Source of the DNA: Azolla caroliniana | Lineage: Eukaryota > Plantae > Polypodiophyta | DNA length: 64,000 nt | Assembly: GCA_043228905.1 (NCBI GenBank) | Contig: JBHGNT010000003.1 | Span: 18,290,001 to 18,354,000, forward strand | Reading direction: 5' to 3' | Part shown: one piece after another, positions 7,717 to 54,339 of the stretch | Position numbering within the stretch: the first letter of the stretch is position 1 | Layout: every line of letters starts with the position of its first letter | The notes under the pieces: generated by a model | Told to the model about the DNA's origin: nothing | Seen by the model: only the letters and a program-made list of their open reading frames with translations | Databases searched by the model: none | Position numbers and translations under genes: made by a program

Positions 7717-8299
7717 AGCGAGTTTTGGTTGAGGGAGTAGACTAAAGAGAAGATCAAGGGAGTTCCGATCAAATGAGATGTTGATGATATGGCCATGTGG
7801 GTTCGACGTGCAATGCACTGTCCCACAGGTGTGCCATGTGTTATCCGTACGAGAGGTACGGAGATGGTCTATGTATGAAGTTTTGTTGTGTATGTACAAA
7901 TGTGCACTAGTGTGTGAATATATGCGTATATGTATGAACACATGCACACGTGTGTGCATGTGGGTAGTTTGTAGATATGAAAGAGTGTGAGTGAATTGTG
8001 TGTGTGAATAGGGTGTGAATGGATAGAGTGGTATACACCCCTATGTAATCATGTTGATATGTAACCCTCATTGTACTATTTAACCCCATAGGGCAATCCA
8101 TGAATGAGAACAAGAAGTCTTCTCTCCTCTCATCATTTCTCTAACGTCTTTCTCTCTCTCTCTTTCTCCCTCCTCACATTCAACCCCTTGGGATGGGGGT
8201 GGAGCCATTCTTGGTTCCACCCCCACCCCATTATCATGTGACGACATCCATTCTTATCACCCCATAAACACATTGAACTAGACTAGTCTTCAAGTAGGC

Positions 8300-10271: not shown

Positions 10272-10560
10272 TGTCATGATATGACCCTAAAAGGAATTGA
10301 ACTCGTGCGCTTATGTTACACGGGTTGAGACCATACCATTAAGTTATTCATTGTAATGCAAAAGATATTATTTTCATTTATTTCATTACAAAAAATTCAT
10401 TTATATTCTAGGTTTCTCTGGAACAGTCTAGAAACTTTAGGAATACCCCTGATAATACTAATGGAGGCATATGGCCATATTCAAAACCAATTCGGTTCAA
10501 CGCTAATCTTAAGCCTCTTAGCTATCCTTGTAATCTTCTTCATATAATATAGTTCTTGTT
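10272..10560. mobile_element. Probable LTR remnant of the Phygy-like family with a tRNA-like module (right boundary uncertain)
   Basis: Abruptly interrupts copia coding sequence with TGTCATGA (cf. TGTCGTGA). Minus-strand A box TAACTTAATGG (10346-10336) and B box AGTTCAATTCC (10303-10293). Confidence 0.5.
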
Positions 10561-11303
10561 ATCATACTTCTTGTTGGGTTGTTGACATAAGGAAATGGTT
10601 TAGAAGATGGGGCATGGATGACCTTTTAGAGCATTCAGGTGATACTATGCATTATGTAATGATTGAGGAAAGGTTGGTGGAATCATTAAGGATGAAGTGG
10701 GAAGATGCTAAGAGGACAAAGCTACAATACTAGATTGCAAATGTGAACCCTAAATGTTGGTCTCAATATAAGCAAGAATGCTTATTGAACGTATCTAATT
10801 GAGTGTATAAGACAAAGGATAGTTGTACAAAATATGAGGGCTTGACCAAATCGATTAGATGGAGTTGTGAATTATAATCGATTATATAGACCAAGGTAAC
10901 TATGAATTAGAGAGAGAGACTCAAGAAATTAAGAGAAAAGATGGAGAAGACAAGAAAGAGATAAGAATGCTACAATATTCTACTATTGATGCAATACAAA
11001 TGGGATAAACTCCAAATTCAACCAAAAAACCAAAGAACTTCTTAGCTTCCAATCACTCAAATCCACAAATTTCTTTCCCTATTCTGCCTTAATCTCTTTC
11101 CTCATTCCATTATACCTCCTCCTTCCCACTCCTAAGATTCTCCCACTTTGTATCTTCTATTTCTGCTTTTATAATCTTCTTATTCTTTTTTTTCCAAAAA
11201 AACACTACTTCGCATTAGTTAGCAAATAGAATACAACAAAGTTTACCCAAATCCACAATGGGATCAACATATACAACTTGGAGGAACGACTCCAAAACTA
11301 TTA

Positions 11304-11428
11304 AACAAAAACAACAAAAACAACAAAAACAACAAAAACAACAAAAACAACAAAAACAACAAAAACAACAAAAACAACAAAAACAACAAAAACGTCAAAA
11401 ACAACAAAAACAACAAAAACAACAAAAA
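11304..11428. repeat. 9-bp minisatellite (AAAAACAAC)n
   Basis: About 13-14 near-perfect units. Confidence 0.95.
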
Positions 11429-11489
11429 CTCAACTGATCCTTAACTCAAACAAAACTGAAATAAACCCTATTTTACCCTGACTCTACAT

Positions 11490-11933
11490 CTCCCAACTAA
11501 CTCTTTTCTAACAACATTATCCGGGTAACATGACTATACGAACCCATGTTTGTGTCAGCTATACATACATAATTACAACCCATGTACAATATTGGGAGCC
11601 ATTGGTGGAAAGGCGCCTGGTAATTCCACTTAGGCCTCGATGAAAATTTGACTATCATGGGAGAGCTACTCCATTTCAGCAAGAACTTTGACCTTGCCCG
11701 TTCTGCTTCTCCTGATTCCACCTGAATCGAATCATACCGACCGTGCAACCAAGTCACAAGATCAAACCAGATATTTAACATCATCTCCCCGCATGAGAGC
11801 TTTTGTTGTTGAAAAACAAACATACAACGCCTGATCCAAATGTGCCAAGCCGTTAAACACGCCACCATAAGCCAAATCTCCTCAAAAAATTCAGAATTTG
11901 TGCTCGGTCTCACCCCATCACATTGGAACATGC
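11490..11933 (-). mobile_element. L1-type LINE ORF2 C-terminal fragment
   Basis: EIWLMVACLTAWHIWIRRCMFVFQQQK matches the W.IW..R...VF motif downstream of zf-RVT. Probably the 3' end of the LINE at 22830-30720. Confidence 0.7.
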
Positions 11934-14900: not shown

Positions 14901-17245
14901 TGGTACTGTGTATTCGATTCGAATACCTTGGCTCTTGCAGTATTCCTCGAATTGCCCTTTGTACTCGCCGCCGTTGTCAGTTCGGACAACCTTCAACTTT
15001 CGACCTGACTCTCTTTCAGCTCTTGCCTGGAATTCCTTGAAAACTGACAATACTTGATCCTTCGTCTTCAGTACGAAGGCCCATGTCTTCCGACTATGGT
15101 CATCAATGAATGTCACAAAGTACTATCCACCTCGATGCGATGGAGCATCAACATAGCACACGTCCGTGTGTACTAGTTCTAGTGCAGTCTCTCTTCTTCT
15201 CGATGGTCTTGTGTGGAATGCATGTCTGTTCTGCTTTTCGGCTAAGCAGTCGACGCACTTCTCCAGATGCACACCCTTGACTTCTGGTAGAAGTTTCTGG
15301 TTGGCTAACAGGTGCATTCCCTTCTCACTCATGTGGCCTAGCCTCTTATGCCATATCTCACATGCCGAGTCGGCTGCCACATTTACTTCCAATTTGCACA
15401 GTCGGGCATGCATCATGTACAATGTGCCTTTTTTCTGTGCTCGGGCCATTATAAGATTTTCTCGACAGAACTTCCACTTGCCATTTCGAAAGCTACCACT
15501 ATAGCCTTCGTCATCTAACTTTCCAGTCAATATCATATTCAATCTGATATTGGGGACGTGTTGAACATCCTTCAGTGTCAGTCGACACCCTGTTGATGTC
15601 ATTAAGCAAACACTTCCGACTCTGGTTACCTTGCACTCTCCACTGTCACCCATCTTTACATAGCCATGATCCTCGGCTATGTAAGTCGAGAAATACTCTT
15701 TGGACGGAGTTATGTGGAACGATGCCTCGGAATCAATCACCCACGTGCAATCTTCACTTGCAAGATTTGCATTTGTCTGTTCACAAATGAACAGGAGTTC
15801 TTCATTGCTTGTAGCAATGGCCAAATTGTTCTTCTCATCCGGAATCTTCCTGGCTTCGACATTATTTCCGACACTCTTATCTTTCTTTAAGTGTCGACAG
15901 TCCTTCTGGAAGTGTCCAGGCTCTCCACAATAAAAGCACACGGGCTTACCTCAGGACTTCAATCTGGCATGGGATTTGTCTGTTCGTTGCGGACTTCTTC
16001 TTCACCGGTCTCTTCCTCTATCCATATGTTGAGTTAGATTCGACTCCGATTGGGATAGGACTCATTTTTCTTTCCTCGCCTCCTCATTTAGGATGCTTGT
16101 CTTCACTGTTTGTAAAGACAAGTTCTCTTCTTGACAGGAGGTGCTGAGAGTAACCACCAGGTTCTCCTAGCTGTCCGGCAGTGTGCACATTAGCAGGATG
16201 GCCTGCATTGCATCATCCAAGGGAAACTTGGTTGCAGCAAGTTGATTTACATACCCCATGAATGTGTTGATGTGTTCGACGATGCTCTCACCGTCTCTGT
16301 ATATCAGCCGTGCGATTTTTCTCATCAGCAAGGTTTTATTGAGCGCATTCTTCCTCTGATACAGACCCGATAGCTTCTGCCACATTTCGTGGGCATTTGT
16401 GTCGTTCGCCGCATGCTGAAGAACACTTATGTTGACACACTATCGGATGGTGGCCACTGCCTTTCTATTTAGAAGTTTCCAATCCGACTCCAATACCCCC
16501 CTGGGTATGTCTGCTTTGTCGACTGGCTTGTACAGGTCTTTCACGATGAGGAGGTCTTCCATCTTTATCTTCCAGTCTGCATAGTTCTGTGAGTTTAGAA
16601 CTATCATACTTGGGAAACTGCTCACACCTCCTTCCATGCTTGCACCTCAAGCTCTGATACCAGTTTGTTGAGAAATCGTTCGGTCAAATCACAATAAATG
16701 AATTGTGCTGAAATACGAATCACAGATATGCCAGAAAAGGAAAGGACGAACAATGGTGCATAGAGATTTAACATGGAAACCCTAAAATGGGAGAAAACCA
16801 CGAGAATAGAACTTCATTATGTATAGCGGATATACAACACAAAATGTTACAACACTCATTCGAGTGTATCAGCCACGCAGGGCTCTTGACGTCTACTGTT
16901 ACGCACGTAGCTATGGCGCCGCTCACACTCACTCTCTCTATCTCACACGCTCTCACGCTACTTCTGTTCTACAATCTCTTCTCTCACATTTTGCCTGAAG
17001 TGTATTTATACTTATACACTGTATGAGCTATTTACAAATGTAGCCTCTGCTACGTATTATTATTATTGCTATAATAATAATAGTCGAACTATCAAACAAT
17101 TGACTCACTATTTTCGACTCTTCGACTGTTGGCTTTCCGAACAATCGGATCTTCCCTGTCTTCGACTATCGACACTCCTTAGTCTGATCAGTCGGCTCCT
17201 CGTAGTCATCGACTGTCAGCAACTTCTTGACAGTCGGTTCCTCCC
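11934..17245 (-). mobile_element. Copia element A (Tork/Tto1-like), near full length, degenerate
   Basis: 3' LTR 11934-12540 (TGTTG...CAACA), PPT ~12543-12552. 5' LTR 16666-~17245 with its outer ~27 bp missing. PBS-Met 16651-16662. LTRs differ at roughly 14 of the first 170 nt, mostly transitions. Confidence 0.95.
12560..16637 (-). pseudogene. Copia A gag-pol with stops and frameshifts
   Basis: gag LNSQNYADWKIKMEDLLIVKDL; CFYCGEPGHFQKDC; WVIDSEAS; WHKRLGH; FIDDHSR...RTDNGGEY; RT LLLYVDDML; RH FTDSNMSG, HCDSQSAI. Confidence 0.93.
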
Positions 17246-20200
17246 AGTGTGGAAGTTGAACATGAGGGACATGCTCGTGGTCAAAGACCTCTGGCTACCG
17301 GTACAGTTTGGGGACAAGAAACCGGATAAGATCGATGCCATGACATGGGAGGTGATGCACATGAAGACGACGACATACATACAATGCTTCATCGACATGA
17401 GCCTGTACAACAACTTCCATGAAGAAAGTAAGGCTCATGAACTCTGGGAGAAGATCGACATCATGTTCTAGAAAAAAAATGTTGTTAATCGGGTTTCAGT
17501 ATTTTGGAAGTTAGTGAGGCTCCGGAACCAAGACGACTCAAGTATGGCGGAGCACATGAATGGCTTCCAGGGGCTAATACACCACCAAGCCACCTCATTG
17601 GAAGTACCTCTCGTGAATGAGGTACTCGCACTACTCCTACTTGGTTCCCTCCCGGATAGCTGGGAGACGTTAGTTGTCACGTTGGGCAACGTTGGGCGGC
17701 ACTCGGGCCGGAAGGAAAACAATTGTCTCTAGCAAGAGTAAAGTCGAGCTTGCTAGATGAAGAGGCGCGTCGGAAAGACAAGGAAGTGATTTCCAACTCC
17801 AAAGTCCTGATTACCGAATCGGAAGCACAAGGAGGAAGACAACGGAACCGTAGTCCCCAGAATCGGGAAAAGTCGGGGACAAGGTCGAAGTCAAGGGGGA
17901 GGCCTACTTGCTTCTATTGTGGGAAACTAGGGCACTTCCAGAAAAATTGTCGGCATTTCCGGAAAGAGAAAGGAACCGACAGTGCCGATTCGAAGAAGGG
18001 TTCAGACCGGAATGGTTCAGACCGGAAGGGAACGTCAGTGATCGCGACAAGTGAAGAAGAACTGATGCTCATTGCTGAGGAGAATGGGTTATACCTTGTC
18101 GGTGAAGAGACAACATGAGTTGTCGATTCCGGAGTGTCATTCCATTTGACACTGGACTAGAAATGCTTCTCATCCTACATAGCTGGAGATCACGGTTGTG
18201 TCTGGATGGGGAATGAAGGTACATGCCGAATTGTTTGCATAGGAGATGTGTTGTTGATAGCATCAACCGGATGCAAATTGCTGCTGAAAGTAGTATGACA
18301 TGTTCCGGTGGTTCGGTTGAACCTGATATCAGCCGGTCAGCTAGATGATGAAGGCTACACGGGTAGCATCTGGAACGGACTCATGAAATTCAGCAAAGGA
18401 AGCTTGATCGTGGCTCGAGCTTGGAAGATCAACACATTGTACTTGATGAATGCCCGGATATGCCGAGAAGAAGTGAACGTAGCATCCGACACTGCCGGTG
18501 AGCTGTGGCACAAGAGACTATGTCATATGAGCCAGAAGGGGATGAGAAGACTTGCCGAGGACAACCTCATTCCGGGGGTGAAGGAAGTGCAACTTGAGAA
18601 GTGCACCAATTACTTGGCCAGCAAGCAAAACTGAACCTCCTTCCGATTAAGACCATCGATGAGATGGAATGCACCACTAGAGCTGGTGCATACCGATGTG
18701 TGTCAAGTCGACACAAAGTCACATGTTGGATCACAGTACTTCATGACGTTCATAGACGACCACAACCGGAAGATGTGGGTCTGACCATTGAAGACAAAGG
18801 ATCAAGTGCTATCCGTCTTCAAGGAGCTCCACGCGAGAGTGGAAAGAGAAACCGGCCGGAAGCTGAAGGCAGTTCGAGCTGATAAAGAAGGAGAATACCA
18901 GGGACTGTTTGAGGAGTATTGCCTGTTGAAGGGAATCCGGCTCGAATTTACCGTGCCGAAGACACCGGAATTGAACAGGTTGGCTGAATGGATGAACCAG
19001 AACATAATGGAGAGAGTCTGAAGCATGCTAACACGTGCCAAGTTACCCAAGACGTTTTGGGTTGAGGCGCTGATGACTGCGACCTATGTGATAAATAGAT
19101 CACCCTCCACACCCTTGGAAGGAGACTCACCGCAGAAAGTATGGACTGGTAAAGATGAATCTTACCAGCATCTGAAGGTGTTTGGTTGTCTCACATATGT
19201 GCATGTCGCAAAGGACAAGAGAGAAAAGTTGGATCCGAAGACCCAACCATGCATATTCCTTCGATACGGCGATGATGAATTTGGTTACCGGGTGTGGGAT
19301 CTAGTAGAAAAGAAAGTGTTCCGGAGTCGGGACATAATCTTCATGGAAGACAAGACCATTACCAATTGGGAGTCGGAGAAGAAGGTGATGAACTCCGGAT
19401 CATCCAATGAAAACTGGTTTGAGTGCACAAGGACTTACCCAATTGAAAACCGGATGTTATCTGGTAACTAGATGACACTCGACGAACCAGCCGGATTCAG
19501 ACAAGAAACCGAACCGACCGAAGAAGAAGAAGAAGACACCGGAACCGGACAAGATCCCGAATCGGATTGGGATTTAGAACAAACGGAGGAACTGGTAGTT
19601 AGAAACCAAGGACGAAGATACCCTCCTAGAGAGAGAAGAGCCCCTCGGAGATTTCCGGATGCAGAGCACGTATTGCTGACTTATGAGGGGGAGTTGGAAA
19701 GTTTCGAAGAAGCAAAGAAAGACACCCATAACTGCAAGTGGTTAAGTGCCATGGAGGACGAGATGGATTCCCTGCATGAGAACCACACATATGAACTAAC
19801 GGAGTTGCCAAAAGGAAAGAGAGCACTTCAAAATAAGTGGGTGTACAAGCTGAAACTGGGAGACGCCGGAAATCCATCGAGGTACAAGGCCCGGATCGTA
19901 GTGAAGGGTTTCCAGCAGAAGAAAGGTGTGGAATTCGGTGAGATCTTTGCCCCGGTTGTAAAGATGACATCCATCCGGACGATATTGAGCATAGCGGCAA
20001 GCATGGACCTCGAGGTAGAGGAACTGGATGTCAAGACAACATTCCTACATGGCAACCTCGAAGAAGAGGTTTACATGCATCAACCGGAAGGATTTGAGAA
20101 GAAAGGGAAGGAGCACTTGGTGTGCTAGCTGAAGAAGAGCTTGTATGGATTGAAGCAAGCTCCCCGGCAATGGTACCAGAAGTTCAACTCCTTCATGACC

Positions 20201-20577
20201 GACCAAGGGTACCACAAGACGCAAGATGAGCACTGTGTGTTTGTGAAGAAATTTGTCGGAGGCGACTTCCTGATACTCCTACTATATGTAGATGATATGT
20301 TGATCGTCGGACGAGACCAAGTCAAGATCCAAATGTTGAAGAAGGCTTTGAACCAGACCTTCTCAATGAAAGACTTGGGTCCAACAAGACAGATTTTGGG
20401 GATGCACATCAACCGAGACCGGTCAAAGAAGTTGTTGTGTTGTCACAAGAAAAGTATGTTGTTGGGGTAGTTGTGGTTCGTACGACGAAGTCACAGGGAC
20501 TAAGGTTAAGGGGAGTTGAAGGAACTTTTATAAGGCTTGCGCACAAATGTTAGGAAGATTAAGGATAAGAAGAATAA

Positions 20578-20895
20578 GAGTTTAAAGTAATGTGTGTGAG
20601 AGAGAGACGAGTATAGATAAAAGATAGAGACAATGTATGATTCAAGAAGCAAGATAGAGACAAATTATGATTTAAGAAAAGAAAGTATACGATATGAACA
20701 TTATGTATATTACGAATACAAGATTTTACCACCTTTGAGTTTAAAGTAATGTGTGTGAGAGAGAGACGAGTATAGATAAAAGATAGAGACAATGTATGAT
20801 TCAAGAAGCAAGATAGAGACAAATTATGATTTAAGAAAAGAAAGTATACGATATGAACATTATGTATATTACGAATACAAGATTTTACCACCTTT
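20578..20895. repeat. Perfect 159-bp tandem duplication inside the solo LTR
   Basis: Unit starts GAGTTTAAAGTAATG at 20578 and 20737. Confidence 0.93.
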
Positions 20896-20926
20896 ACAAT
20901 GCTTGAACCCTTTCTCTACCGACTCT

Positions 20927-20981
20927 TGATTCGAACCCTTGACTCCAACTTGGAAACACGAGCCTCTTCACTAACAAGCTA
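20927..20981 (-). promoter_or_regulatory. tRNA-like Pol III module, opposite orientation to the array at 21224
   Basis: TAGCTTGTTAG ... GGTTCGAATCA, starts 44 nt apart. An extra B-box-like GGGTTCAAGC lies at 20901-20910. Confidence 0.6.
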
Positions 20982-21223
20982 ACATATTTGTTTCTTTGAT
21001 TATCTTCTTTCTCTAACTTTCTCTTCTTGATTCCCCTTTTGTTTTCCTTTCCCCTCTTTTTATAAGTATTGCAATGCATATGGTAATGTGTAGGAGCATG
21101 GCATGCATGTAATGCATGAGTTACATGTGATGCATGATAGCCATCATGCTCATTTGAGCTCCCATGTATGAAAATATATATGGGATAAGTATAATGATGG
21201 ATACAACCCTAAAACAAATGACC

Positions 21224-21483
21224 TAGCTTAGTGGTGTATGCTTTGTGCTTGATATACAAGGTCGAGGGTTCAAGTCCCTAAAACAAATGACCTAGCTTAG
21301 TGGTGTATGCTTTGTGCTTGATATACAAGGTCGAGGGTTCAAGTCCCTAAATTTTACTTAATACAATATTTAAGTTTATTCTTATATAGTGAAGCACATT
21401 CTTGACAATATTTCTAAAAACAAATAGCCTACCCTAGTGGTATATACATTGTGCTTGGTTTATAAGGTTGTGGGTTCAAGTGT
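21224..21483 (+). promoter_or_regulatory. Three tandem tRNA-like Pol III promoter modules (A + B box)
   Basis: A TAGCTTAGTGG at 21224 and 21293, B GGTTCAAGTCC at 21267 and 21336 (69-bp duplication). A third degenerate unit at 21430/21473. Anticodon-like stem TTGTG/TACAA, T-stem AGGG/CCCT, no acceptor stem. Confidence 0.8.
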
Positions 21484-24387
21484 TTGAAATATTACTGAAT
21501 TTAATATTTAAATTTATTTTTATATCGTGGAGCAAATCCTTCACGACAACGTGACAAAGGTGCTTCAACGGTTCAACATGTCGGATGCGAAACCGATCGG
21601 ATTGACACTTCCGGCAAATTGCAAGTTGTCTGGAAAGCAGAGCCCAAAGACAAAGCCAGAGAAGTCGGATATGACGAAGATACCATATGCCTCTGCCGTC
21701 GGAAACTTAATGTACGCAATGGTGTGCACTCGACTGGATATTGCATATGTTGTCGGAGTAGTCAGCCGGTTCATGAGCAATCCCAAAAGAGAGCATTGGA
21801 ACGCGGTCAAGTGGATACTTCGGTACTTTAAAGGCACCTCGAATATGTGCCTCCGGTAAATCCAAACTTGACGGATTCATGGATTCGGATATGTCGGCTG
21901 ATGTGGATACCAGCCGGTCTACATCCGGATATGTCATGACTTATGCAGGGGGAGTTGTATCATGGCTGTCGTGGCTGCAGAAGTCCGTTGCACTGTCGAC
22001 AACGGAAGCGAAGTACATGACAACTGTGGAAGCCGGCAAGGAGATAATCTGGATGAAGGACTTCATCAAAGAGCTAGGGATCCGACAGGAGGAATTCCGG
22101 CTCTACTACGACAATCAAAGAGCCATCCACCTTGCGAAGAACGCGACCTACCATTCCCGGACCAAGCACATCCAGAGGAGATATCATTGGCTCTGGGAGA
22201 AGGTAGAAGATCAAGACTTCGTGCTGACGAAGATCCACATGCAGGAGAACGGATCGGATATGCTGACTAAGGTGCTTTCAACCAACAACTTGGACGTGTG
22301 CCAGAGACGGATCGGATTAACGAGAAATCCCATGCCGGAGTGAAGGGGGAGCTTGTTGGGAATTCGGTCCCTCCGGATGGGATCTGGATGAGAACCAGAT
22401 GAGCCAGATGAAGGAACCGGATCCGTAAGGGTTCCGGATGAGACCAGGAAACCGGATCGAGTGAATCTAGATGGATCCGGTGCAAACCTTATCCAAGAAC
22501 ATATGTGTAAATATGTTTCATAGTGAGCCCATCGAGGCAATATTTGTAAATAGCCCTAAAGTCATATAAGTATAAATATGACTTAGGGCAACCACTTTAT
22601 GTAGCGATGAGAGTTGTTGATAGAGTGTATACACAGTGAAAGAGAGAGAGAGAAACACACACACATAGAACAATTTCTATTGTAATCGCCGGTTGGCGAA
22701 GACATAGAGCTCGAGGTTGTTGCCTCTGAGTCTCACATTGTATTCCTCCCCTCATAGTGATAGTTGGAGTCTGTGGGCTCCTGTGGTTTTACCCATTTAG
22801 GGTTTCCACCTAAACATCCTGTGTCATCTCTAGTTTTAGTTTGTCTTTCTTCCATTCATTGTTTAAGACTCGGTTGTGGCCCAACGCTATTTTTCGCACA
22901 ATCTTGTACCCTAGCATCCTCCCCCAAGGCAAGTACTTTTGCTGTCCAAGCATCATACCATCTTCACTTCTAATCCCAGGGTTCCAAAACTGTGGTTGTC
23001 GTCGCTGTTCATTCAGTGTTTTTGGTTGCATTAAGACCAACCCTTCTCTTAAACTTGACCATGCCTTCATTATGGTGCCAACCACCCTATCCTCCATGCT
23101 AGTCGGTTCTTTCAACTTTAGAGCTGGACTGGACATCCACCATGTATTTGCCTACCAAGGACCACCATTCCTGGGACACCAAAGGTCAGCTCTGTTCCTA
23201 ATGAGCACATTCCACAATTCTGGTCCAAGTTGTAGACTTCGCACCAAAAGCTTACCAAGTAGAGCCTTATTTTGGTGAACCGGATCCACCATGCCACTTT
23301 AGCTGACTCCATCTCATTATCTCTACCCTGTCTCCCTGATTCTTTGTCTTAATTAAATAACCCCATGCCACTTTAGCTGACACCATCTCATTATCTCTAC
23401 CCGACCACAGGAACCCTCTTAGCATTGCCTTAATATTTTTTATGCAGGCTTTGTTTAACAGCCAACATGCCACTGAATGCCACATGGTGGCCATCAAAAT
23501 ATGGTTCACCACCACAACCCTAACAACAAGGGAGAGCTTTACTGATGCCCACAACCAAAGCTTTGTTCTAATTTTGTCTTTGACCTGCCCAAGCTGTTGA
23601 TTTTTAGGTATCTGAACTCCCACCAAAAAGCCCAAATACTTAATAGTCATGCCATTGGGGACCCATTGAAAATCAACGTTAGGACACCATAACGGTCGTG
23701 GGTTTGAACTTACCCAAAATCCTCTACTTTTGTTCCAGTTAATTTTCCCCTCTGACGCTTTGCAAAACCACTCAATCCGTCCTTCAACCTTTTGCAAATT
23801 AGCATCGTTGCCTTGCAAGTAACGCATAGTGTCATCTGCATACTCAGAGTCCAGCAAATCCTTGCTCGCATGTGGAATAACTAAACCCCTTATTCTTGCA
23901 TCCGATTTGTTAAAAAAAAAAGAACGCCTTTGTAATATATAAATAAAGATAGGGGGCCAACGGGCACCCCTATCTAACAGATCTGCGTAATGGAATCGAT
24001 GGGCCACAATGCCTTGTCACTAACACCCTACTCGAACTTCCTTTGTAAAGGGCCATCGTAGCCGATCTCCATTTTAAAGGTAATCCCAACCTTTCCATGA
24101 GTTTATCTAAAAAAGACCACAGAGGTCTGTCATATGCCTTCTCAAAGTCAAGCATGAGACAGGTAATGTGTTGATTGGTTTTCTTTGCCAAGGCAATCAC
24201 CTCCCAAAATGTCAACACATTATCAATTATGCATATGTTTTCCATCAACCTTGTTTGTCCAACGTGGATTAGTTCATGCAGGTAGGGTTTTATCCTCTTG
24301 GCTAGTATGTTGGCAAATATCTTATATATTGTGTTGAGCAGCGTGATCGGTCTCCATTGCCTTGCATCTGTTGTTACACCTCGTACC

Positions 24388-32249: not shown

Positions 32250-32642
32250 TTTATACATTGAAGATCACTTGCCTTTCGACAAGCCAATTTGTTAAGTCCT
32301 ATGCATATATTTTTTTCAATTGTAAAGAAGGGAGACATATGTGAAAGAGAACCGTAACACATCATCTTTCCGGCAAGAGATAACTTATATAAATTCTTAC
32401 AATGCATAGAAAAGTCAGGAAGAGTTAAGTCACCATAACTCTTAACACATTTCACTTTTAGATTTCCCCAAATTTTAGTACATACATGTGCTTTCTCTTG
32501 CGTTTAGAGAAATCGTTGAGTCACTTCCCATATTGTTCTCATTCTTTGAATAAGCCTTTTGTACTCATGCAAATGCTTTTCGTAACATTAAATGATATAA
32601 GCATCTACATGTGCTAGAGAGAGAGAACCACTTTATAACATT

Positions 32643-32709
32643 AAATTGGAATGATACAGAGAAGATTAGCATGGCCCCTACGCAAGGATGACACACACAA
32701 ATCGAGAAA
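32643..32709 (+). pseudogene. U6: U6 snRNA retro-pseudogene fragment
   Basis: AAATTGGAATGATACAGAGAAGATTAGCATGGCCCCTACGCAAGGATGACACACACAAATCGAGAAA matches the internal part of plant U6 including the ACAGAGA box. Flanked by a 25-bp direct repeat (32622-32646, 32711-32735). Confidence 0.95.
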
Positions 32710-33625
32710 AAGAGAACCACTTTATAACATTAAATGATTGAAATCGTCAAACATGACATGGATATCAATCATTGTAAAGGAACAGAAAAATCTCTCCTAA
32801 CCAATGGGAAAGTAACTTCTTTTTTGGGGAAAAAGAAGTGACATTGAGAATTGAGTTACATGTTCTTTTCATGCATTTAATGCAAGTACATCTTAAACAA
32901 CCAACCATACAATCTCTCTCATCATACACCAAGTTAGTTGAAATCATATCTTATTCTACTTCTGCATCGACTTTTGAGGGTCTTAAGGGTGTCTCTCGAT
33001 TTGACTTGACACAAACTAATGGAAAAACAACCGCCACCATCTCACACATACACACACACACACTCTCTCTCTCTCAACCACAATGTGCACTCTCGATTGC
33101 AACAATCATTGGTAAAGTTCTTGAACATCAAGAATCGCAACTCACTTTCACATGTATTAGGTGAAATGTAATATTTTGGGTCTCATAGGTCATATTTGGC
33201 CTCCGGAGACGATAATACAATCTCTCTCTCTTCTCCAAGGTACACACACGTACACGTACGCATACACATGACCACCACCACAACCACAATCTTATGATAT
33301 CTCTTGCCTTTGTCCACATACTTGTGAATATAGGAAATGGGCTCCTTCTTCATTCAACCAAGGTAGCCTTCCTTTGTGAAAATAATACACACCCCAATGA
33401 ATGAATGGGACCCATAAAACATCCATTCAAAATGTTTGATTTCTTACTCCCCTTTCTCTGTTCTCACGAGACCTTCTGCTTCCTATCTTCCCTGCAATTA
33501 TCTGTGCCCTAAATTTCTTACCCCCCCCCCCCCCCCTCCCCCCCTTCCTGTTCTCTTCAGATCGGCTTCAATCTCTGCAGCAAATTTAAGTGTGCAAACC
33601 TCTCTTCCACATTACTTCAGCAGCT

Positions 33626-40209: not shown

Positions 40210-40685
40210 TGTTGTGAAAATCCGTCACTATGTGCGGATCGTGAGGCGGAACCGCCGGGGTCTTGGATCGAAAGGATTTGACGTTTGTACTAGCTTTAGC
40301 GAGAAAGTATTTAAGATAGATTGAGAGATATTGATATGGCTAGAGAAAGATTGAGATGGAGAGAGAGGGAGATTAAGATTGAACCCTTGACTTTAGATTT
40401 GAGAAACAAGATTAATACATCACCAATTGGATAACGAATTTTCTTTTTTTTATTAATTTCTTGATTAATACATAGCTCCGTTTTTCTTTTTCATCCACTC
40501 TTTTATAGATGCCCCCATGCATATGATGCATGTGAGGGTGCAAGACATGCATGTAATTAATGCATGAAATGCATGTTTGCCATTTGGCGCTCATGCATTG
40601 CATGTGTTGCATGATAACCATGTCACTCATTCAAGCTCTCATGTATGAGAAGTATAATGATAAAATGTAACTTTAAGAAATGACT

Positions 40686-40742
40686 TGGCTTAGTGATAAG
40701 TTTATTACCTCCTTCCTTGGAGGTGCAAGGTTCAAGCCTTGC
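40686..40742 (+). promoter_or_regulatory. tRNA-like Pol III module in the gypsy LTR
   Basis: A TGGCTTAGTGA (40686), B GGTTCAAGCCT (40729). Perfect stems ACCTCC/GGAGGT and GCAAGG/CCTTGC. Confidence 0.75.
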
Positions 40743-41639
40743 TTGCATCCCTTTCAATGCACAAAATATTACTAGGCTTTAGTCTTGTATTTTACAAATG
40801 TTTAACTGCATATTACACCTTCAGTTGACCTCCAATGAGCCGACAAAACCTATAGACGATTTTTTTGTGTGTTCGTTTCACACCGAAATCTTCAAGACAC
40901 CGTACGTTGCGATCAACCTATCCGACTAACCCGACCAATCCGTCTGTCCGGTCCCGACCGGTTCGATCCGCATTCCATCCGGTCTGGTTCCGGTTTCGGT
41001 TTCGGTTCCGTCGCCATCCATCCAGTTCGGTTCTCCAAACCCATTACGAGTAGTTACACCACATCCATCCATCCGAATAGTTTAGTCCAAGTCACCTTGA
41101 ACATTCTGTGCTCCACACATAGATAGAAAGTAATAAGTTTTGGCTCTGCTTATATATTGTGGGATCCTGATTTGTCCTATCTATGTGGAATATCTCAGAG
41201 TTTTGTTTTTCTCTTCTTCTTCTCAAACTTCACACTCACATAACTTGACATTTAGTTGTCCGTTTCAAATGTTGTAAAGTGCATTCGAAAGCTCTTAAAG
41301 ACATCCATCTTTTCGTACCAAGATATTAAACTAATATAAAATAGTATCTTCACTATTATTGTTTCATATTGTGTGTGAAGAACCACACTTGATTTTGTAC
41401 ATTCCATGCAATTTTCACACCATTGCCGAAAATCTTCACGACATCCACCCCCACCAAACCGCACGTCCTCCGGTACGTGCCAAGAAGAGAGAGTGTGTGA
41501 GATTTCAGATATGGTGATCAATTAGATTCCTCCATGTCCTCATTCACATAACTCAAGTATGTAGGTTCAGTCCTACTATCTTCATCGTCGAGGTGATTGA
41601 GGTCAGGATCCTCGTCTTGTCTTTTCTTGGAAATTTTTA

Positions 41640-44600
41640 CTCATTTTCCCGCAATGGGTATGGCCAACCTTAATCTGTCTAGCTCCGCAAGGTGGTATGT
41701 GGCATTTTCGTTGGCACTTGTCGCCACATATGGTCAGAACCACCTTCTTGTGAACTTTCTTGTTTTCCTGTGTTGATTGTCAAGGATGTTGTTGTAGACC
41801 AATACCCAATCTCCTTCTTCGATATTCTTGGGACGTAGTCGATGTGTCTTGCCGAACCGAATCTTGTTCCTCACTCGGGCTACCTCCATCATCTTTCGTG
41901 CTTTTTCTAAATCTTCAGGCCTTCTTTCAAGTTGCCTTATCCGTGCCGCTAATAATTCTTCTTGGCTCATCTCATTTTCCCATGGTATAGGTACCCATGA
42001 GGCGATCATCCTTTCGATGGGCATTACTGGCTTCTGTCCATACATAAGCTTTGTTGGCATATACCCTGTCTCTGAACTGTGTGTAGTTCTATTGGCTCAC
42101 AAGGCATAGGGCAATAGTCGTGGCCAGTTCCCGACTCGACCGTTGCATGCTCGTACGATGACTTTGACGATTGGTCCATGCTCTCACTCGATCTTCCCAT
42201 TCGCTTCTGGATTGTAGGCAGTCGTGAGTGAGAGCTTCACGCCTAGTCGTTCGAAGAGCTCCGTTGTTTCATGTACATTCAACTCCCTTCGATCGGCCAC
42301 TATCTTTCCCACACATCCGTATCGGCAGACAACCTCTTCGAGTAGAAATTTGCAAACAACTGACATCGTCTTATTTGCCAAGGCCCGTCCTTCCACTTGA
42401 TTTGCCAGAACTAAGTACTTCATTTTTCCCACTCTCATTGGCATCGAGACTAGATCCACCATCCATTTGAAGTGTATGGTGAACCGGTATGTCGGTCGTA
42501 CCTCATCACGATGACGTATGTTCGAATGTACTTGGCAAGTTTCGCATGTGGACACAAAATGGAGTACATCTTTGTACATGCTTGGCCACCAATACTTCTC
42601 CTTCAACTTTTCGAATGTCACCCATGTTCGTCTATGACCTGCCCAAGGACTCTCGTGGAATTCAGTCATCAGCTTCACTTGCTCTTCTTTCTTCACCACC
42701 ACTCGACGTGGCATTCCTCTCCTTCTTTTTGGGTGTCGCCCATGGAATTCTCCCTTCAGGAAGTAGTGGTAAGCTTTCTTCCGGATTCGTAGAGCCTCCT
42801 CCTTCGTCAACAAAGCATCCGCCATCATTGTTCTTAAGAATCTGTCGATTAGTAACCACTCTCCTTTGTACTCGTCCTCGTTGAAAGCATGGAGGGTTAG
42901 CGTGCCCTTGTCTTCTGTCGATAGTCGGGCGATCTTGAAGAAATCAAGGGTGACGTCTTCATCTTCTGAAACCATGTTACATTCATTCTCAAATCTTGCC
43001 CTCGATAGCATGTCAGCCATGGCATTCTTCTTTCCTACAATGTCGCAGATCTCTGTGTTTAAAGACTTGATATAGGCGATCCACCTTAGCATAGCTAGAT
43101 CTAGTGTTGCACATCCTGAGGTCATCCCGAGGATTGGGAGACAATCTTTCTCAATTATCACTTCCGACCCGATTAGGTAGTCTTTGTCCATCTTCACTGT
43201 AGACACAATACCCCAAAGTTCCCACTTGACTTGGTCGTATCTTTGTTGTCGTTCGCTGAGAACCTTTGCTCCGAACCGGATGGCATACCACACATTATCT
43301 TCTCCTTCTTGGTTGATGACCCACCTGATTCCAGTTGGGCTCATATCTACAGTCACATAAATCAGCTTTCTTTCGGTATAGTCGGCCTTTCTTAGTGTTG
43401 GAGCTTCAAGAAGTAGTTCCTTCAATCTTCACATCGCGTTTGTATGCTCGTCTCGCCATTCGAACTTCATTCTTTTCTTTAGCAATCCATATAATGGCTC
43501 GACAACATGACCGTAGTGCGGAATCCAGATATGATAAATCAAGCATGCTCCAAGGAACCTTCGAACCTCTGTTTGGGTTACACATTCTTCTTTCATGTCC
43601 TAGATTGCGTTCACCTTGGATGGCGAAGGCTTTTGGCTGTATGCTCCACACAAGTGACCTACCACGAAGATCTCTGGTTGCCCGAATGCAGATTTTTCTC
43701 CCGAAAATGTCAAATTCGCATCTTCGAGCCTTTGGAGCACCTTCTCACAATCTTTCATATGATCCACGACGAACTTTCTACACCCTTCCTTATCTTTTGA
43801 TTCATCCTTCTCCTCACCCGAACATTCTTTTATTGGAATATCATCCAAGAATGGCATCGTGATGCTTGGGATGCAATCCTTCAAGCCTTGTTCATGGTAT
43901 TCACCATATGAGCCACCGAGTTCGTTGCACCTTGAGGTAAGGTACACATCCTCACAAGCCCGATCGAAGTCCTCATGGTTGTAATGTCACGACTATCGAT
44001 TGCCAACTGGAATTGATCGTATCTAGAGTAGAGATCGCCAATGGAGTAGATGGACCGGCCCACAAACGCCTCAGCAAATTCATCCACACTCGGACTAATT
44101 CCAACATTCCGAATTGTCACCTTGTTGATGGCTTGAAGATCCTGGATGAATGACAATGATCCATTCTTCTTTGGCACCGTGAACCACGTATTAGAATAAG
44201 GAGCATTCAACGGTTCCAAAATTCCCGTTTTCACCTTCTCTTTTAAGAGCTCGATAAGCTTCAGTAGGTATGCTCTCGGAACCGGTATCGGTTTCTAATT
44301 CCAAGGCACATGCGGCACCGTGAAGATCACCATCAATTCTACCATCCTTGGATCATCATATCCGATTTCCTGTGGGAGAAAAGCGAAAGCCTTCCCATGT
44401 TTTTCAAGCATTCCGCAGAACATTCGCTCCTCTTCAGGGAGGAGGAAATCCTCCTTTCCAACTCTTAGCTTTCTTTTTTTCTCTTCAGTGAAGACGTGAC
44501 CTATTGACTTTGGATCCCTTAAGCTTGGATCATTATTGACTTCCTTCATCTTTTGCCAGCTATCTTTTGGTAGCAGAACCGCAACTGGCTTGATATTTCT

Positions 44601-45868
44601 ATCCACCGTTTTATATTTTGTGTTAACTTCAGCTTCCTCCATCAAGATGCTTCAATGGTATTCATCGATGATTGCGTACATGTTGACAGAGTTAACCGAA
44701 ATCACATGTTGATTGTGAAGATAGCTCAAGTCCAGGACTTCCTCGATTTTGCCAATGGTGTCGTTAAATGAGGCTTCTTCCATAATATGAGTCACAAATT
44801 CTTCTTCTTCTATTATGTTCTCTTCTTTCAGCATCTTCTCGAAGTCTTGTATCTGACGCTTGTCCTTCTTGTTGGGTAGTACTACTTTACATGCGCCACT
44901 AGGTGTGACACATGTTGCTTCTCCTTGCAATCCATGCACTCTACTTTCTTGTGGGGACTTGTGATCACTTGGACTATTTGTGCTCCATTCTTCAATAGTC
45001 CGCTCTAAAAGTCCAAGGATTCGCCTCCAAGGCTATCTCGATTTCTGTCATGATTAGCTCACACCGTTAGGAATTGAACATATCTTTGACTATCAAGACT
45101 CTTGATTCGCGCGAAGGCTGCTCCATTATCGAACACCTTAGTCTCCATCCGGGATGATGTGATGTATGGTTGTCCAAGGATGACAGGATGCGAAGCCGAT
45201 TCTTGCACGAAGAAGTGTTGATCCATCTCCACATCCCCAATCGTGACTTTAACATTTGGGCAAGCTCCGTACAAGTCCTCTGTGGCCTTTGTTGCCACTC
45301 GAATCTTCCATTCGTGGTTTGTATTAATTGGCCATCTTCCATTTTTGGAGAACTCAGTTGACATGAGGTTGATGTCCAAGCCATGGTCAATCAAGGCTAC
45401 CACATTCTCTTTCTTCTCCCCGATCTTCATTGGCGTGTCCGTTGTCGCTCGTGCCCAATGAGGTCAAGTATAGTGGCTGTCCACCATATCTTCATCGACT
45501 TCGTCCCTTGCCATCGTTATGACGTTTGTTTTGGCTTTTAATGGCTTCTCTTCTTCCTCGTCCGATTGTTGTCTTTTTCTCTTTACAAGGTCCACGATCA
45601 TATCATGGAACTCCTTTTTCGTAATGTCGAGCAATTCCTTCAAGGACAAGGTCACATGACTATCGAGAACATGTTCCTCGAGAATCTTCTTCAGATCTGT
45701 TGTTTGCTCTATGTCCAACTTTAGCTTATAGGTAGGCATAGTTCTTGTTCCAAGCAGGTTCTTCGACTCCATTTCTTTGACTCGTTTGCTCGACTCCCCT
45801 TTTTGACTTGAATCTCCTTCCTCCGTTTGTAAAGCTCGACTCGTTTCTGTATCTTCTTTCTTTTTCAC
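41640..45868 (-). pseudogene. Phygy-like pol (PR-RT-RH-INT), fragmented
   Basis: ORF fragments 45059-45430, 43881-44234, 43600-43947, 42184-43425, 41734-42060 in gypsy domain order. Confidence 0.9.
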
Positions 45869-46433
45869 GCTTCTTGTTTCATGTCCGTGTTACTCCTAAG
45901 GGCCGGACAATAGCCTAACACAGGGTGTCTACGGAAGACACTTCACCAAAGGGTGTTACAGCGAGGTAACTTAGACTAACGATTGATCAGACCTTTATCA
46001 ACTACTTAAGCAACATATCATGAATCTTAATACATGCGTAAGATAGAAAGTAATTAGCACAGAACGGTAATCAATACATAGAGATAAGACAATAGGGCTT
46101 TATTAATTATCCGTCCGATTTACAATGTAACCGGGCCTTTTTATAGATCATCGGCTCTGCATACAAAACGCTGCCAACCGGGACACTGATATGAACCGGT
46201 TCGGATCCAGATCGGCATACCGATTCCGGTCTGTCCGTTCACTTCTCAAAATATACTTAATTATGTAATATTCTAATAACAGCTTCCGATAATTCCTGCC
46301 CTTTCACATTCTGGACTGTCCTCCACTCCTTGCCGGTTGGCTAACACATGGCACGCCCGTGGGAAAGTACCTTGTACGTCGAATCCCACTATCTGGCCTT
46401 CAATCCTTGTCCAAAATGTCTAGAATGCTCTGA

Positions 46434-49393: not shown

Positions 49394-49829
49394 TTCTCCT
49401 TCTGAATCGATGGGTGCTAGTGAGGTAGGTGCGTTAGTGGGCTCTGGGTGCTCGCGTCTGATTATCTTTAATCGCCTGTGTGCGTTTGCAATTCTCTGTT
49501 CGCGAAATGAGAAGGCCTCCTTTCTCGATTCCTACGCATGTGCACGTCGTGTACTATAATAGCAATGAAGTGCCCCGTGGCGGCGTTTTAATGCGCTATA
49601 AATAGCCCACTTCATGGCTTTTCAAAGTGCCCGTTCACTTCTCCCTTGTCATGGCATGTGGCCGTTCGCTCCTTGCCATCGCATGATTTGATCTGATTCG
49701 ATTTCCTTTCTTTTTCTTTTTCTTTTTCTTCTTCTTTTTTCTTTTTATTTATTTATTTATTTATTTTTAAATTCAATCTTGTTAATCCGTATCCGGCCCA
49801 AACAGACCCTTCTCTGGCTTGTGGTCCCT

Positions 49830-52783: not shown

Positions 52784-53603
52784 AGCTTCCTACACTTGTC
52801 GTAACTCTCTAATGGCTTCTTTATCCAGTTCTTCATTGGCATCCTCTAGTTGCATTATATATGGCTCAACTACTTTCGGTTGTCTTGTTTTCTCCGTGAC
52901 AATCGATCCTGCCAAGTCAGTGTTATCAACCCACTAACGACGCTTGTCGAGCCTATTGCACGCCCGCTTCACCACAATCCAATTTACCACAAGCCCGTTT
53001 TCTTGGGTATCATCTTCAAGAAGAGTCCCCAATTCTCGTCTATCCTTCATATCCACAGCTTTCAAGAAGTACAAAGTCTTGTCCTCCTCTTGCAGCACTT
53101 GGTCTGTGTTGGGGAGACGACTAAACATCTAGTCAAATTCTTCATACACCCTCGAGGCACTCATCTTCTTATTTTTCTTCTCTATCCACTTCATCAAGGC
53201 ATGTCTAGTCATCCTAGACAAATCTTCTGTCACAAACTCTGCTAATATTGCTTTCTCGAACTCGGACTATGTTGTCTTGCCTTCTTGAAGCTCGATGGCG
53301 TGCCTTTGGATGTTGTTGGCAACCACTCTCTTGAAACTTGTGACTTGACGTGCTTCAAACACGTCCCTCTGATTCATCTCCCTTCTGTATGCATCAAGGA
53401 ACTTCATAATGTTCCTTCTGTCAAATTGACCCTCGAGCTCCACAACACGGTCGACAGCCTTCTCCATGCTCACATCATTGTCCCGAGATCTCATCATTTG
53501 TTCAACGATTAGCATCATCCTTTCGAACTCTCCTGCTTGATTGCTTGAGGATGTCATCTCCAAGTATCGGTCGATCCTCGACTTGATCCTTCCTACCGCC
53601 TCT

Positions 53604-53621
53604 TTCACGTCGGGTTCACCA
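53604..53621 (-). promoter_or_regulatory. Primer binding site, tRNA-Trp
   Basis: Plus strand TTCACGTCGGGTTCACCA equals the 3' 18 nt (with CCA) of plant cytosolic tRNA-Trp as recalled. Confidence 0.88.
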
Positions 53622-54014
53622 CTTAATTATGTCGTGAAAATCCGTCACTATGTGCGGATCGTGAGGCAGAACCACCGGGGTTCTGGATCGAAAGGATTCA
53701 AAGTTTGTACTAGCTTTAGCGAGAAAGTATTTAAGATAGATTGAGAGAGATTGATATGGCGATAGAAAGATTTAGAGGGAGAGAGAGGGAGATTAAGATT
53801 GAACCCTTGACTTTAGATTTGAGAAACAAGATTAATACATCACCAATTGGATAACGAATTTTCTTTTTTTTTATTAATTTCTTGATTAATACATAGCTCC
53901 GTTTTTCTTTTATACATGCCCCCATGCATATGATGCATCTGACGGTGCAAGACATGCATGTAATGCATGTGATGCATGTTTGCCATTTGGCACTCATGCA
54001 TTGCATGTGTTGCA

Positions 54015-54190
54015 TGATAACCATGTCACTCATTCAAGCTCTCATGTATGAGAAGTATAATGATAAGATATAACTTAAAGAAATGACTTGCGTGATAACC
54101 ATGTCACTCATTCAAGCTCTCATGTATGAGAAGTATAATGATAAGATATAACTTAAAGAAATGACTTGCGTGATAACCATGTCACTCATT
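54015..54190. repeat. 78-bp tandem repeat (2.25 copies) in the 5' LTR
   Basis: TGATAACCATGTCACTCATTC at 54015, 54093, 54171. Confidence 0.9.
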
Positions 54191-54339
54191 CGACCAACCC
54201 GACCGATCCGTCTGTTCGGTCCCAACCGGTCCGATCTGGTCGCGTCCGTCCTGACCGGTTCAATCCACATCCGATTCGCATTCCATCCGGTCTGGTTCTG
54301 GTTCTGGTTCCGTCACCGTCCGTCCAGTCCGGTAGTTGG

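What the first reader, a model, noticed from the sequence alone, without database searches (positions are those of the whole stretch)
20460..21548. Gypsy LTR family whose Pol II promoter is bracketed by divergent tRNA-like Pol III modules
Seen: this solo LTR has three plus-strand modules. Two have perfect consensus A (TAGCTTAGTGG) and B (GGTTCAAGTCC) boxes. One minus-strand module lies at 20981-20927. Between them are a CATGCA block and a minus-strand TATA (~21056-21066). The same layout recurs in the related LTR 40210-41443: plus module 40686-40742, TATA ~40500-40508, degenerate minus module 40433-40375. A further module sits at 10346-10293. A-to-B start spacing is 43, 43, 43, 43, 43 and 44 nt (48 in the most degenerate unit), matching tRNA positions 8 and 52. 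Acceptor stems are absent, so these are not functional tRNAs. Established: Cassandra TRIMs carry 5S-derived Pol III promoters in their LTRs, and tDNA/TFIIIC sites act as heterochromatin barriers in yeasts. Inference: a pol-encoding gypsy lineage has co-opted outward-facing tRNA-type promoters as insulators against silencing, or as sources of Pol III RNAs.
Basis: partly seen in the sequence, partly recalled or inferred. Interest (0 to 1): 0.8.

Follow-up and report, generated by a model that had tools for sequence, protein, structure and literature searches.

The report
tRNA-type promoter boxes in retrotransposon LTRs
Several families of a plant jumping gene, likely from a moss or liverwort and some with their own gag-pol genes, carry conserved tRNA-type promoter boxes about 165-250 bases upstream of the likely TATA box of their end repeats and pointing away from it, where they likely act as a protein-bound boundary that shields the element's own promoter rather than making tRNA.

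Summary
20460-21548 is a solo LTR (4-bp NCGN-type target duplication) of a Phygy-type gypsy element inside a copia RT gene. Its two perfect modules are one private 69-bp duplication; relatives have two. In 30 complete Phygy LTRs, 28 of them fetched by their tRNA-Trp primer site and not by the boxes, 7 carry modules (13 modules; 0.23 expected). Outward (antisense) modules occur in five LTR families, 165-246 nt from the TATA-like site, always with 43-44 nt spacing, without tails or own target duplications. Among copies, 0 of 22 box positions vary versus 9 of 32 spacer positions. The inward module is intact only in this family and a few relatives, so the 'divergent bracket' is not general. 40210-41443 belongs to another, gag-pol-encoding family that shares only the TATA/CATG/module cassette, apparently through LTR-in-LTR fusion; pol was not seen for this LTR's own family. 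Closest known: Helenus/Cassandra TRIMs, which are short, non-coding, with sense modules. A TFIIIC boundary role is inferred, untested. The scan's notes showed no earlier finding of this. Interest 0.55.

The parts
20460..21548 (-). Solo LTR of Phygy-type family A (TG...CA ends), reading on the minus strand
   Evidence: colinear at 78-87% with L054 and L058, which have a tRNA-Trp primer site next to the 20460-type end
20456..20459 (.). Left copy of 4-bp target duplication (ATGT; right copy ACGT at 21549-21552; one C-to-T change in a CG)
   Evidence: NCGN is the Phygy target (PMC6317226); contigs with the empty site exist
20578..20895 (.). 159-bp tandem duplication private to this copy
20928..20981 (-). 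Inward tRNA-like module (A to B 44 nt), downstream of the TATA-like site, same sense as the element
21056..21066 (-). TATA-like site, likely the Pol II promoter (inferred)
   Evidence: conserved in 9 of 9 aligned module-bearing LTRs
21075..21170 (.). CATG-rich, partly palindromic block upstream of the TATA-like site, shared with family B
21224..21276 (+). Outward module, private 69-bp duplicate of the next one
21293..21345 (+). Outward inner module (A to B 43 nt), T4 six bases after the B box
21430..21482 (+). Outward outer module in the LTR's terminal ~140-bp unit, which is an old tandem duplicate (21280-21406 vs 21417-21544, 79%)
17245..22832 (+). Host copia element whose RT gene is split by the solo LTR
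40210..41443 (-). 3' LTR of family B element; compound LTR with an internal LTR-end remnant plus CCGT at ~40880-40903 and a second TATA-like site at ~41151
40376..40433 (-). Degenerate inward module (48-nt spacing)
40686..40738 (+). Outward module of family B, 184 nt from the TATA-like site at ~40502
41444..41455 (-). Polypurine tract before the 3' LTR
41737..45889 (-). Broken gag end, protease, RT, RNase H and integrase of the family B element
52937..53626 (-). Broken gag start of the family B element
   Evidence: 85-92% to gag of L016, L033, L088
53606..53621 (-). Primer-binding site for tRNA-Trp
   Evidence: complementary to the 3' end of a tRNA-Trp gene in L123 with one mismatch
53630..54333 (-). 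5' LTR of family B element; keeps the degenerate inward module (53796-53853), has lost the outward module, cut by a LINE-like sequence
10294..10346 (-). Separate A/B-like module in an AT-rich insert in another copia; not part of this family

Best explanation
Several Phygy-type gypsy LTR families carry a tRNA-derived A-box/B-box module in U3, antisense to the element and about 165-250 nt upstream of a TATA-like site, which likely binds TFIIIC and would act as a boundary that keeps the Pol II promoter and its CATG block usable. Shown: solo LTR, Phygy marks, module position, orientation, fixed spacing, box conservation, patchy spread over families with unlike gag genes, and a compound LTR in family B. 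Inferred: the module came from a tRNA or SINE head captured once or more in U3; selection kept the boxes and spacing but not the anticodon arm or acceptor stem; TFIIIC (with or without Pol III) bound there would block read-through or silent chromatin coming in from the flank; the cassette moved between families by LTR-in-LTR fusion. The inward module is an optional second copy, kept in family A and lost repeatedly elsewhere.
For: Unbiased sample: LTRs fetched by the primer site; 13 modules in 30 complete LTRs versus 0.23 in shuffles, 0 in 13.3 kb host flank, 1 in 104.7 kb internal DNA. A profile of families A and B finds L001, L069, L009, L115, L121 at E<=5e-5; all 21 hits under E 1e-3 in 304 kb lie in Phygy LTRs, and a real tRNA-Arg gene scores only 10 bits. 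TATA-to-A-box distance 166-190 nt in family B, L001, L069, L009 and 207-246 nt for the inner module of family A, although L009 is only 52% identical to the window element in RNase H-integrase. Spacing 43 in 12 of 12 aligned outward modules while flanks are full of indels. Among laid contigs of two runs, 0 of 22 box positions and 9 of 32 spacer positions vary at >=8%, no indels (Fisher p=0.007). Anticodon position reads six or more different triplets and acceptor stems are missing: not tRNA. Outward modules are antisense and the inward one is followed by T4 within about 10 nt in L054 and L058, so they cannot make genomic RNA. Tandem gains of the module recur (joints). TFIIIC sites block Pol II read-through and silencing in yeast (PMC4228148 abstract; PMC9540200 passages).
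Against: No binding, chromatin or expression data. 23 of 30 complete Phygy LTRs lack modules, including L031 and L065 whose RT is 88% identical to the window element's; W53630 and L064 lost it by deletion. Within families the box advantage is small (key-box vs spacer differences 0.17 vs 0.17 for family A outer modules, 0.12 vs 0.18 for family B), the B box alone against the spacer gives p=0.08, and the read test mixes paralogues with the A box near the stretch end. Cross-family box sharing may only reflect tRNA ancestry. In Arabidopsis clustered tRNA genes with intact cis-elements are silenced by methylation (PMC7544208 abstract and headings), and the plant barrier review cites no plant tDNA barrier in the passages read. 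The TATA assignment is by motif only.
Confidence: 0.42

Rival explanations
1. Neutral passenger: a tRNA or SINE head fell into U3 long ago and has been copied along with an AT-rich cassette by LTR duplication and recombination, with no present role.
For: Most Phygy LTRs lack it; deletions occur in family B; inward modules decay; weak within-family box advantage; Kojima proposes SINE insertion into LTRs as a common route and notes that 'not a few' Repbase LTRs hold tRNA-like sequence (PMC10886601).
Against: Same place and orientation in five families with gag starts about 40% or less alike; fixed 43-44 spacing amid indel-rich flanks; 0 of 22 versus 9 of 32 variable positions; spacer 58% different between family A and the others while key box positions differ 11%.
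Confidence: 0.27
2. The modules are active Pol III genes for 70-115-nt non-coding RNAs ending at T-runs, which act as decoys or feed small-RNA pathways; the RNA, not the bound factor, is the selected product.
For: T4 lies 6-51 nt after the B box in 10 of 14 outward modules listed; CAA and AT-rich sequence lie just upstream in family A, as plant Pol III prefers (PMC13578239 passages); family A inner modules keep paired anticodon and T arms.
Against: No T4 before the LTR end in L069 and none within 100 nt in L001 and L022; spacer sequence and anticodon arm are not conserved between families.
Confidence: 0.18
3. Reverse-transcription aid: in the genomic RNA the outward module is complementary to a tRNA body, so the free part of the tRNA-Trp primer could pair with U3 and bridge the two ends for strand transfer, as reported for HIV-1 U3-R.
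For: Orientation and U3 position fit; spacing 43 equals that of tRNA-Trp; L022, L058-outer and L054-outer duplexes with tRNA-Trp beat 98-100% of spacer shuffles; the HIV precedent is cited in PMC9757044 (passages; the original papers were not held).
Against: Spacer identity to tRNA-Trp is only 10-16 of 32; 10 of 13 outward modules do not beat shuffles at 5%; the modules have G at position 52 where tRNA-Trp has T; conservation sits on the general boxes, not on Trp-specific arms.
Confidence: 0.08

Closest known systems
Helenus TRIMs / TRIMp3 (Kojima 2024, PMC10886601; parts 1-4 of 6 of the text and supplement passages read)
   Same: tRNA-like sequence in LTRs, conserved A and B boxes, mostly not functional tRNA, solo LTRs, proposed origin from a SINE head in an LTR; one plant case (Selaginella).
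   Different: Helenus is 311-1263 bp, non-coding, with 5-bp target duplications in plants; the two LTRs seen in its supplement hold one sense module, proposed as the element's own promoter. Here LTRs of 538-1234 bp belong to elements with gag or gag-pol, have 4-bp NCGN targets, a TATA-like site, and mainly antisense, outward modules that cannot make genomic RNA.
Cassandra TRIM (as described in PMC10886601)
   Same: Pol III promoter elements inside plant LTRs.
   Different: 5S-derived, sense, shown to drive transcription of a short non-coding element; here tRNA-type, antisense, in long coding elements.
Phygy non-chromovirus Ty3/gypsy clade (Neumann et al. 2019, PMC6317226; passages and supplement row read)
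   Same: 4-bp NCGN target duplication, tRNA-Trp primer site, gypsy domain order, bryophyte relatives.
   Different: The passages read mention no tRNA-like modules in the LTRs; most Phygy families sampled here also lack them.
Yeast tDNA / TFIIIC (ETC) barriers and animal tDNA or SINE insulators (PMC4228148 abstract; PMC9540200 passages)
   Same: A/B or B boxes beside a Pol II promoter, acting without a tRNA product (inferred here).
   Different: Those are host loci or SINEs in fungi and animals with binding data; here the boxes ride in a plant retrotransposon's LTR and binding is untested.

Membership tests
Phygy Ty3/gypsy | 4-bp target duplication of NCGN type | tested here: met
   ATGT/ACGT around 20460-21548; 17 of 38 first-found LTR ends in loci are followed by NCGN, 10 by a PPT-like tract, 11 by neither
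Phygy Ty3/gypsy | tRNA-Trp primer-binding site | tested here: met
   53606-53621 and family A relatives L054, L058, L081; matches tRNA-Trp gene in L123; loci were selected by this site
Phygy Ty3/gypsy | gypsy order PR-RT-RH-IN | tested here: met
   family B element and L009; not seen for family A
Phygy Ty3/gypsy | No chromodomain; placement with REXdb Phygy on a tree | not testable with these tools
   No chromodomain hit among the frames scanned, but the integrase end is broken and no REXdb set is held
Helenus / TRIMp3 | tRNA-derived A and B boxes in the LTR | tested here: met
Helenus / TRIMp3 | Short non-coding element (about 0.3-1.3 kb) | tested here: not met
   family B and L009 encode gag-pol pieces over several kb; family A internal part unknown
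Helenus / TRIMp3 | Module placed to drive the element's own RNA | tested here: not met
   outward modules are antisense; inward module is followed by T4 in L054 and L058 and is absent from three families
SINE insertion | Own tail and target duplication; free copies outside LTRs | tested here: not met
   no tail or duplication in alignments; no hit under E 1e-3 outside Phygy LTRs in 304 kb, a small and LTR-biased sample
tRNA gene | Acceptor stem and full cloverleaf | tested here: not met
tDNA/TFIIIC barrier | TFIIIC occupancy and blocking of silencing or read-through | not testable with these tools
   needs ChIP and reporter data

The most novel reading that the evidence does not exclude
Autonomous bryophyte gypsy elements have co-opted tRNA-type TFIIIC sites as a portable anti-silencing boundary placed about one nucleosome upstream of their Pol II TATA box, spread between families by LTR-in-LTR fusion and amplified in tandem; this would be a Pol III-factor insulator encoded by a coding retrotransposon and a natural, thousands-of-copies test of tDNA barriers in plants.
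Probability: 0.25. Interest if true: 0.85.

Novelty: new variant of a known kind. Interest (0 to 1): 0.55.

Why it matters
Pol III promoters in LTRs are described for short non-coding TRIMs, where they replace the Pol II promoter; Kojima 2024 argues that the autonomous partners must use Pol II. Here tRNA boxes sit beside a Pol II-type promoter in coding elements and point the wrong way to make genomic RNA, so they need another explanation. Sister families with and without the module in the same hosts make a ready comparison for an open question: whether TFIIIC/tDNA sites act as chromatin barriers in plants, and whether transposons use them against silencing. Such modules also inflate tRNA pseudogene and SINE counts in bryophyte annotation.

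Tried and rejected
No whole genome is held, so no genome-wide count. Viral contigs gave nothing for the CATG block, pol or the tRNA end; the first genome-contig scan gave nothing. No RNA holder was listed and the one possible RNA run laid on the module gave 0 contigs; this is no evidence on expression. Summed contig depth at the B box was of the same order as at the LTR ends, but the tool says depth is no copy number, so it is not used. The RT tree (12 rows, 136 columns) is mostly unresolved: module-bearing W40210 and L009 do not group, with weak support; the gag tree failed in the script and was not repeated. The source tRNA could not be named: only tRNA-Trp and one tRNA-Arg gene were at hand. 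Rejected: functional tRNA genes; Cassandra-like Pol III transcription of the whole element; sporadic SINE insertions; treating the two perfect modules as independent; counting the 10346 module in this family. Considered without evidence: modules as Ty3-like landing sites for integration (insertions follow NCGN). The figure '18 of 18 ends followed by NCGN' is circular (ends were curated by that mark) and is not used. Literature searches that found no report of A/B modules in autonomous or bryophyte LTRs; the library lacks most subscription papers and Repbase entries, and Kojima's non-TRIM hits are not listed in what was read, so prior notice cannot be excluded.
Full report
1. Setting. The window is nested plant retrotransposon DNA: several copia elements, two gypsy elements and a LINE. 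Named relatives of the gypsy pol piece 42187-43428 come from Riccia, Calypogeia and Adiantum, so the host is likely a bryophyte (inference). No whole genome is held.

2. The LTR at 20460-21548. It splits a copia RT gene; contigs with the empty site exist. It has TG...CA ends and ATGT / ACGT on its two sides, a 4-bp NCGN duplication with one C-to-T change. Neumann et al. 2019 give 4-bp NCGN and a tRNA-Trp primer for the Phygy clade (PMC6317226, passages and one supplement row). The element at 40210-~54333 has a polypurine tract beside 41443, broken gag, protease, RT, RNase H and integrase on the minus strand, a nested second gypsy, and a primer site at 53606-53621 that matches a tRNA-Trp gene end.

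3. The observation. At <=1 mismatch there are 3 hits against 0 in 8 of 8 simulations; at <=3 mismatches 12 against 3-9, so the minus modules are not significant from the window alone. ARAGORN finds nothing; Rfam matches tRNA positions 8-63 at 16.2 bits, under the cut-off of 29. The two perfect modules are one identical 69-bp duplication. The two LTRs share only the TATA/CATG cassette (70-78%). The 5' LTR at 53630 has lost the outward module.

4. An independent sample. They span dozens of LTR families. Family A (20460, L054, L058, L081): all 3 complete LTRs have two outward modules and one inward module; L081 is cut but ends in the inward B box. The two outward modules come from an old duplication of the LTR's last ~140 bp; the third in the window is private. 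Family B (40210, 53630, L022, L033, L052, L064 and short loci): outward module in 4 of 6 long enough to tell, deleted in 53630 and L064; inward module intact in the near relative L115, fair in L121, degenerate in the window, decayed or deleted in L022, L033, L052, L064. L001, L069 and L009, three further families, have one outward module and no inward one; L021 and L050, of the L069 family, show none in the DNA held. Of 30 complete LTRs (28 loci, 2 window; L009's LTR was found later and is not counted) 7 carry modules: 13 against 0.23 expected; 0 in 13.3 kb host flank and 1 in 104.7 kb internal DNA. A profile from families A and B recovers the other families' modules; all 21 hits under E 1e-3 in 304 kb are in Phygy LTRs, a real tRNA-Arg gene scores 10 bits, and the 10346 module is missed. 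No tails or own target duplications flank the modules.

5. Are the boxes conserved? Spacing is 43 in 12 of 12 aligned outward modules (44 in L009 and the inward ones). On a fixed tree, 12 key box columns show 9 changes and 32 spacer columns 58 (p=0.005), but two modules were found by their boxes, and within families the gap is small: 0.06 vs 0.15, 0.17 vs 0.17, 0.12 vs 0.18. Laying 172 and 245 contigs of two DNA runs on the L058 inner module, 0 of 22 box positions, 9 of 32 spacer positions and 6 of 24 downstream positions vary at >=8%, with no indels (p=0.007; B box alone p=0.08). Caveats: paralogues mix, contigs drop rare variants, the A box is near the stretch end. Some contigs show further tandem module copies. 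The TATA-to-A distance is 166-190 nt in family B, L001, L069 and L009 and 207-246 nt in family A relatives, although L009 is 52% identical to the window element in RNase H-integrase. Anticodon positions vary widely and the spacer is at most half identical to tRNA-Trp. I could not tell whether family A and the others share one capture or two.

6. Coding capacity and spread. Family B and L009 have pol; L069 has a gag start; L001 has an unrelated frame; family A shows at most 11 nt past the primer site, so its autonomy is unknown. The closest RT relatives of the window element, L031 and L065 (88%), lack modules. Family B LTRs hold an internal LTR-end remnant followed by an NCGN-like 4-mer and a second TATA-like site nearer the U3 end, which points to fusion of a short cassette-bearing LTR into another family's LTR (inference).

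7. Mechanism. The modules cannot be the genomic promoter: the common ones are antisense, the sense one meets T4 at once in L054 and L058, and the elements are kilobases long. What is kept is what TFIIIC reads (A box, B box, spacing; PMC13578239 passages) at a set distance upstream of the TATA/CATG promoter. I therefore favour a TFIIIC-bound boundary in U3 (0.42), by analogy with yeast, where such sites stop read-through and silencing (PMC4228148 abstract; PMC9540200 passages). Against it: no binding data, absence from most families, losses, and silenced clustered tRNA genes in Arabidopsis (PMC7544208 abstract). Rivals: neutral passenger (0.27), short Pol III RNAs (0.18; T4 within 6-51 nt in 10 of 14 modules), tRNA bridging in strand transfer (0.08; HIV precedent seen only as passages in PMC9757044).

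8. What is known. Helenus and Cassandra TRIMs carry Pol III promoters in LTRs, and Kojima 2024 notes that 'not a few' Repbase LTRs have tRNA-like sequence but studies only TRIMs (PMC10886601, parts 1-4 of 6 and supplement passages). A 2026 sugar beet paper names only Cassandra and Helenus/Ajax as examples (PMC13570524 passages); the P. patens TE paper has no occurrence of 'Pol III' or 'SINE' (PMC7466625). Searches showed no report of this layout. It fails Helenus membership (coding, 4-bp target, antisense) while sharing its building block: a new variant of a known kind. The scan's own notes showed nothing on it.

9. Verdict. Real, family-borne and probably under some constraint; narrower than claimed (bracket not general, one perfect module not two, autonomy of this LTR's family unknown) and wider in another way (five families, fixed distance from the TATA-like site). 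Function untested. Interest 0.55; 0.85 if the boundary role holds (probability about 0.25 for the full novel case).

Noticed in passing
window ~46340-46390 (minus), inverted match at 7799-7846: The second gypsy element nested at ~45955-52860 has a tRNA 3'-arm-like stretch where a polypurine tract is expected before its 3' LTR, and a long extra frame after integrase; the same kind of feature is noted in earlier scan findings e1-10597906 and others.
   Followed up: no
window 32620-32723 (+): U6 snRNA copy, 78.7 bits, with a degenerate 5' hairpin; probably a pseudogene.
   Followed up: no
window 10275-11933: AT-rich insert breaking a copia RNase H gene, with an A/B-like module about 20 nt from its left end; a like module lies in the flank of L052 outside its LTR.
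   Followed up: partly
window 40880-40903; L052 LTR positions ~605-620: Internal LTR-end remnant followed by an NCGN-like 4-mer and a second upstream TATA-like site: family B LTRs look like one LTR fused into another.
   Followed up: partly
L001: A module-bearing Phygy-type LTR family whose internal region opens with a 623-codon frame that did not match the window's gag or pol pieces; maybe a non-autonomous derivative with a foreign frame.
   Followed up: no
L009 35-3214: Open 1060-codon frame in which a gag start runs directly into the region before RT, with no match to the window's protease piece; followed by a shared LTR and a second gag start.
   Followed up: partly
window 62427-63923 (-): 499-codon frame with DUF7869 (E 3e-50).
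   Followed up: no
L036 1150-1224: tRNA-Arg(CCG) gene about 200 nt beyond a module-less Phygy LTR; used as a control.
   Followed up: partly
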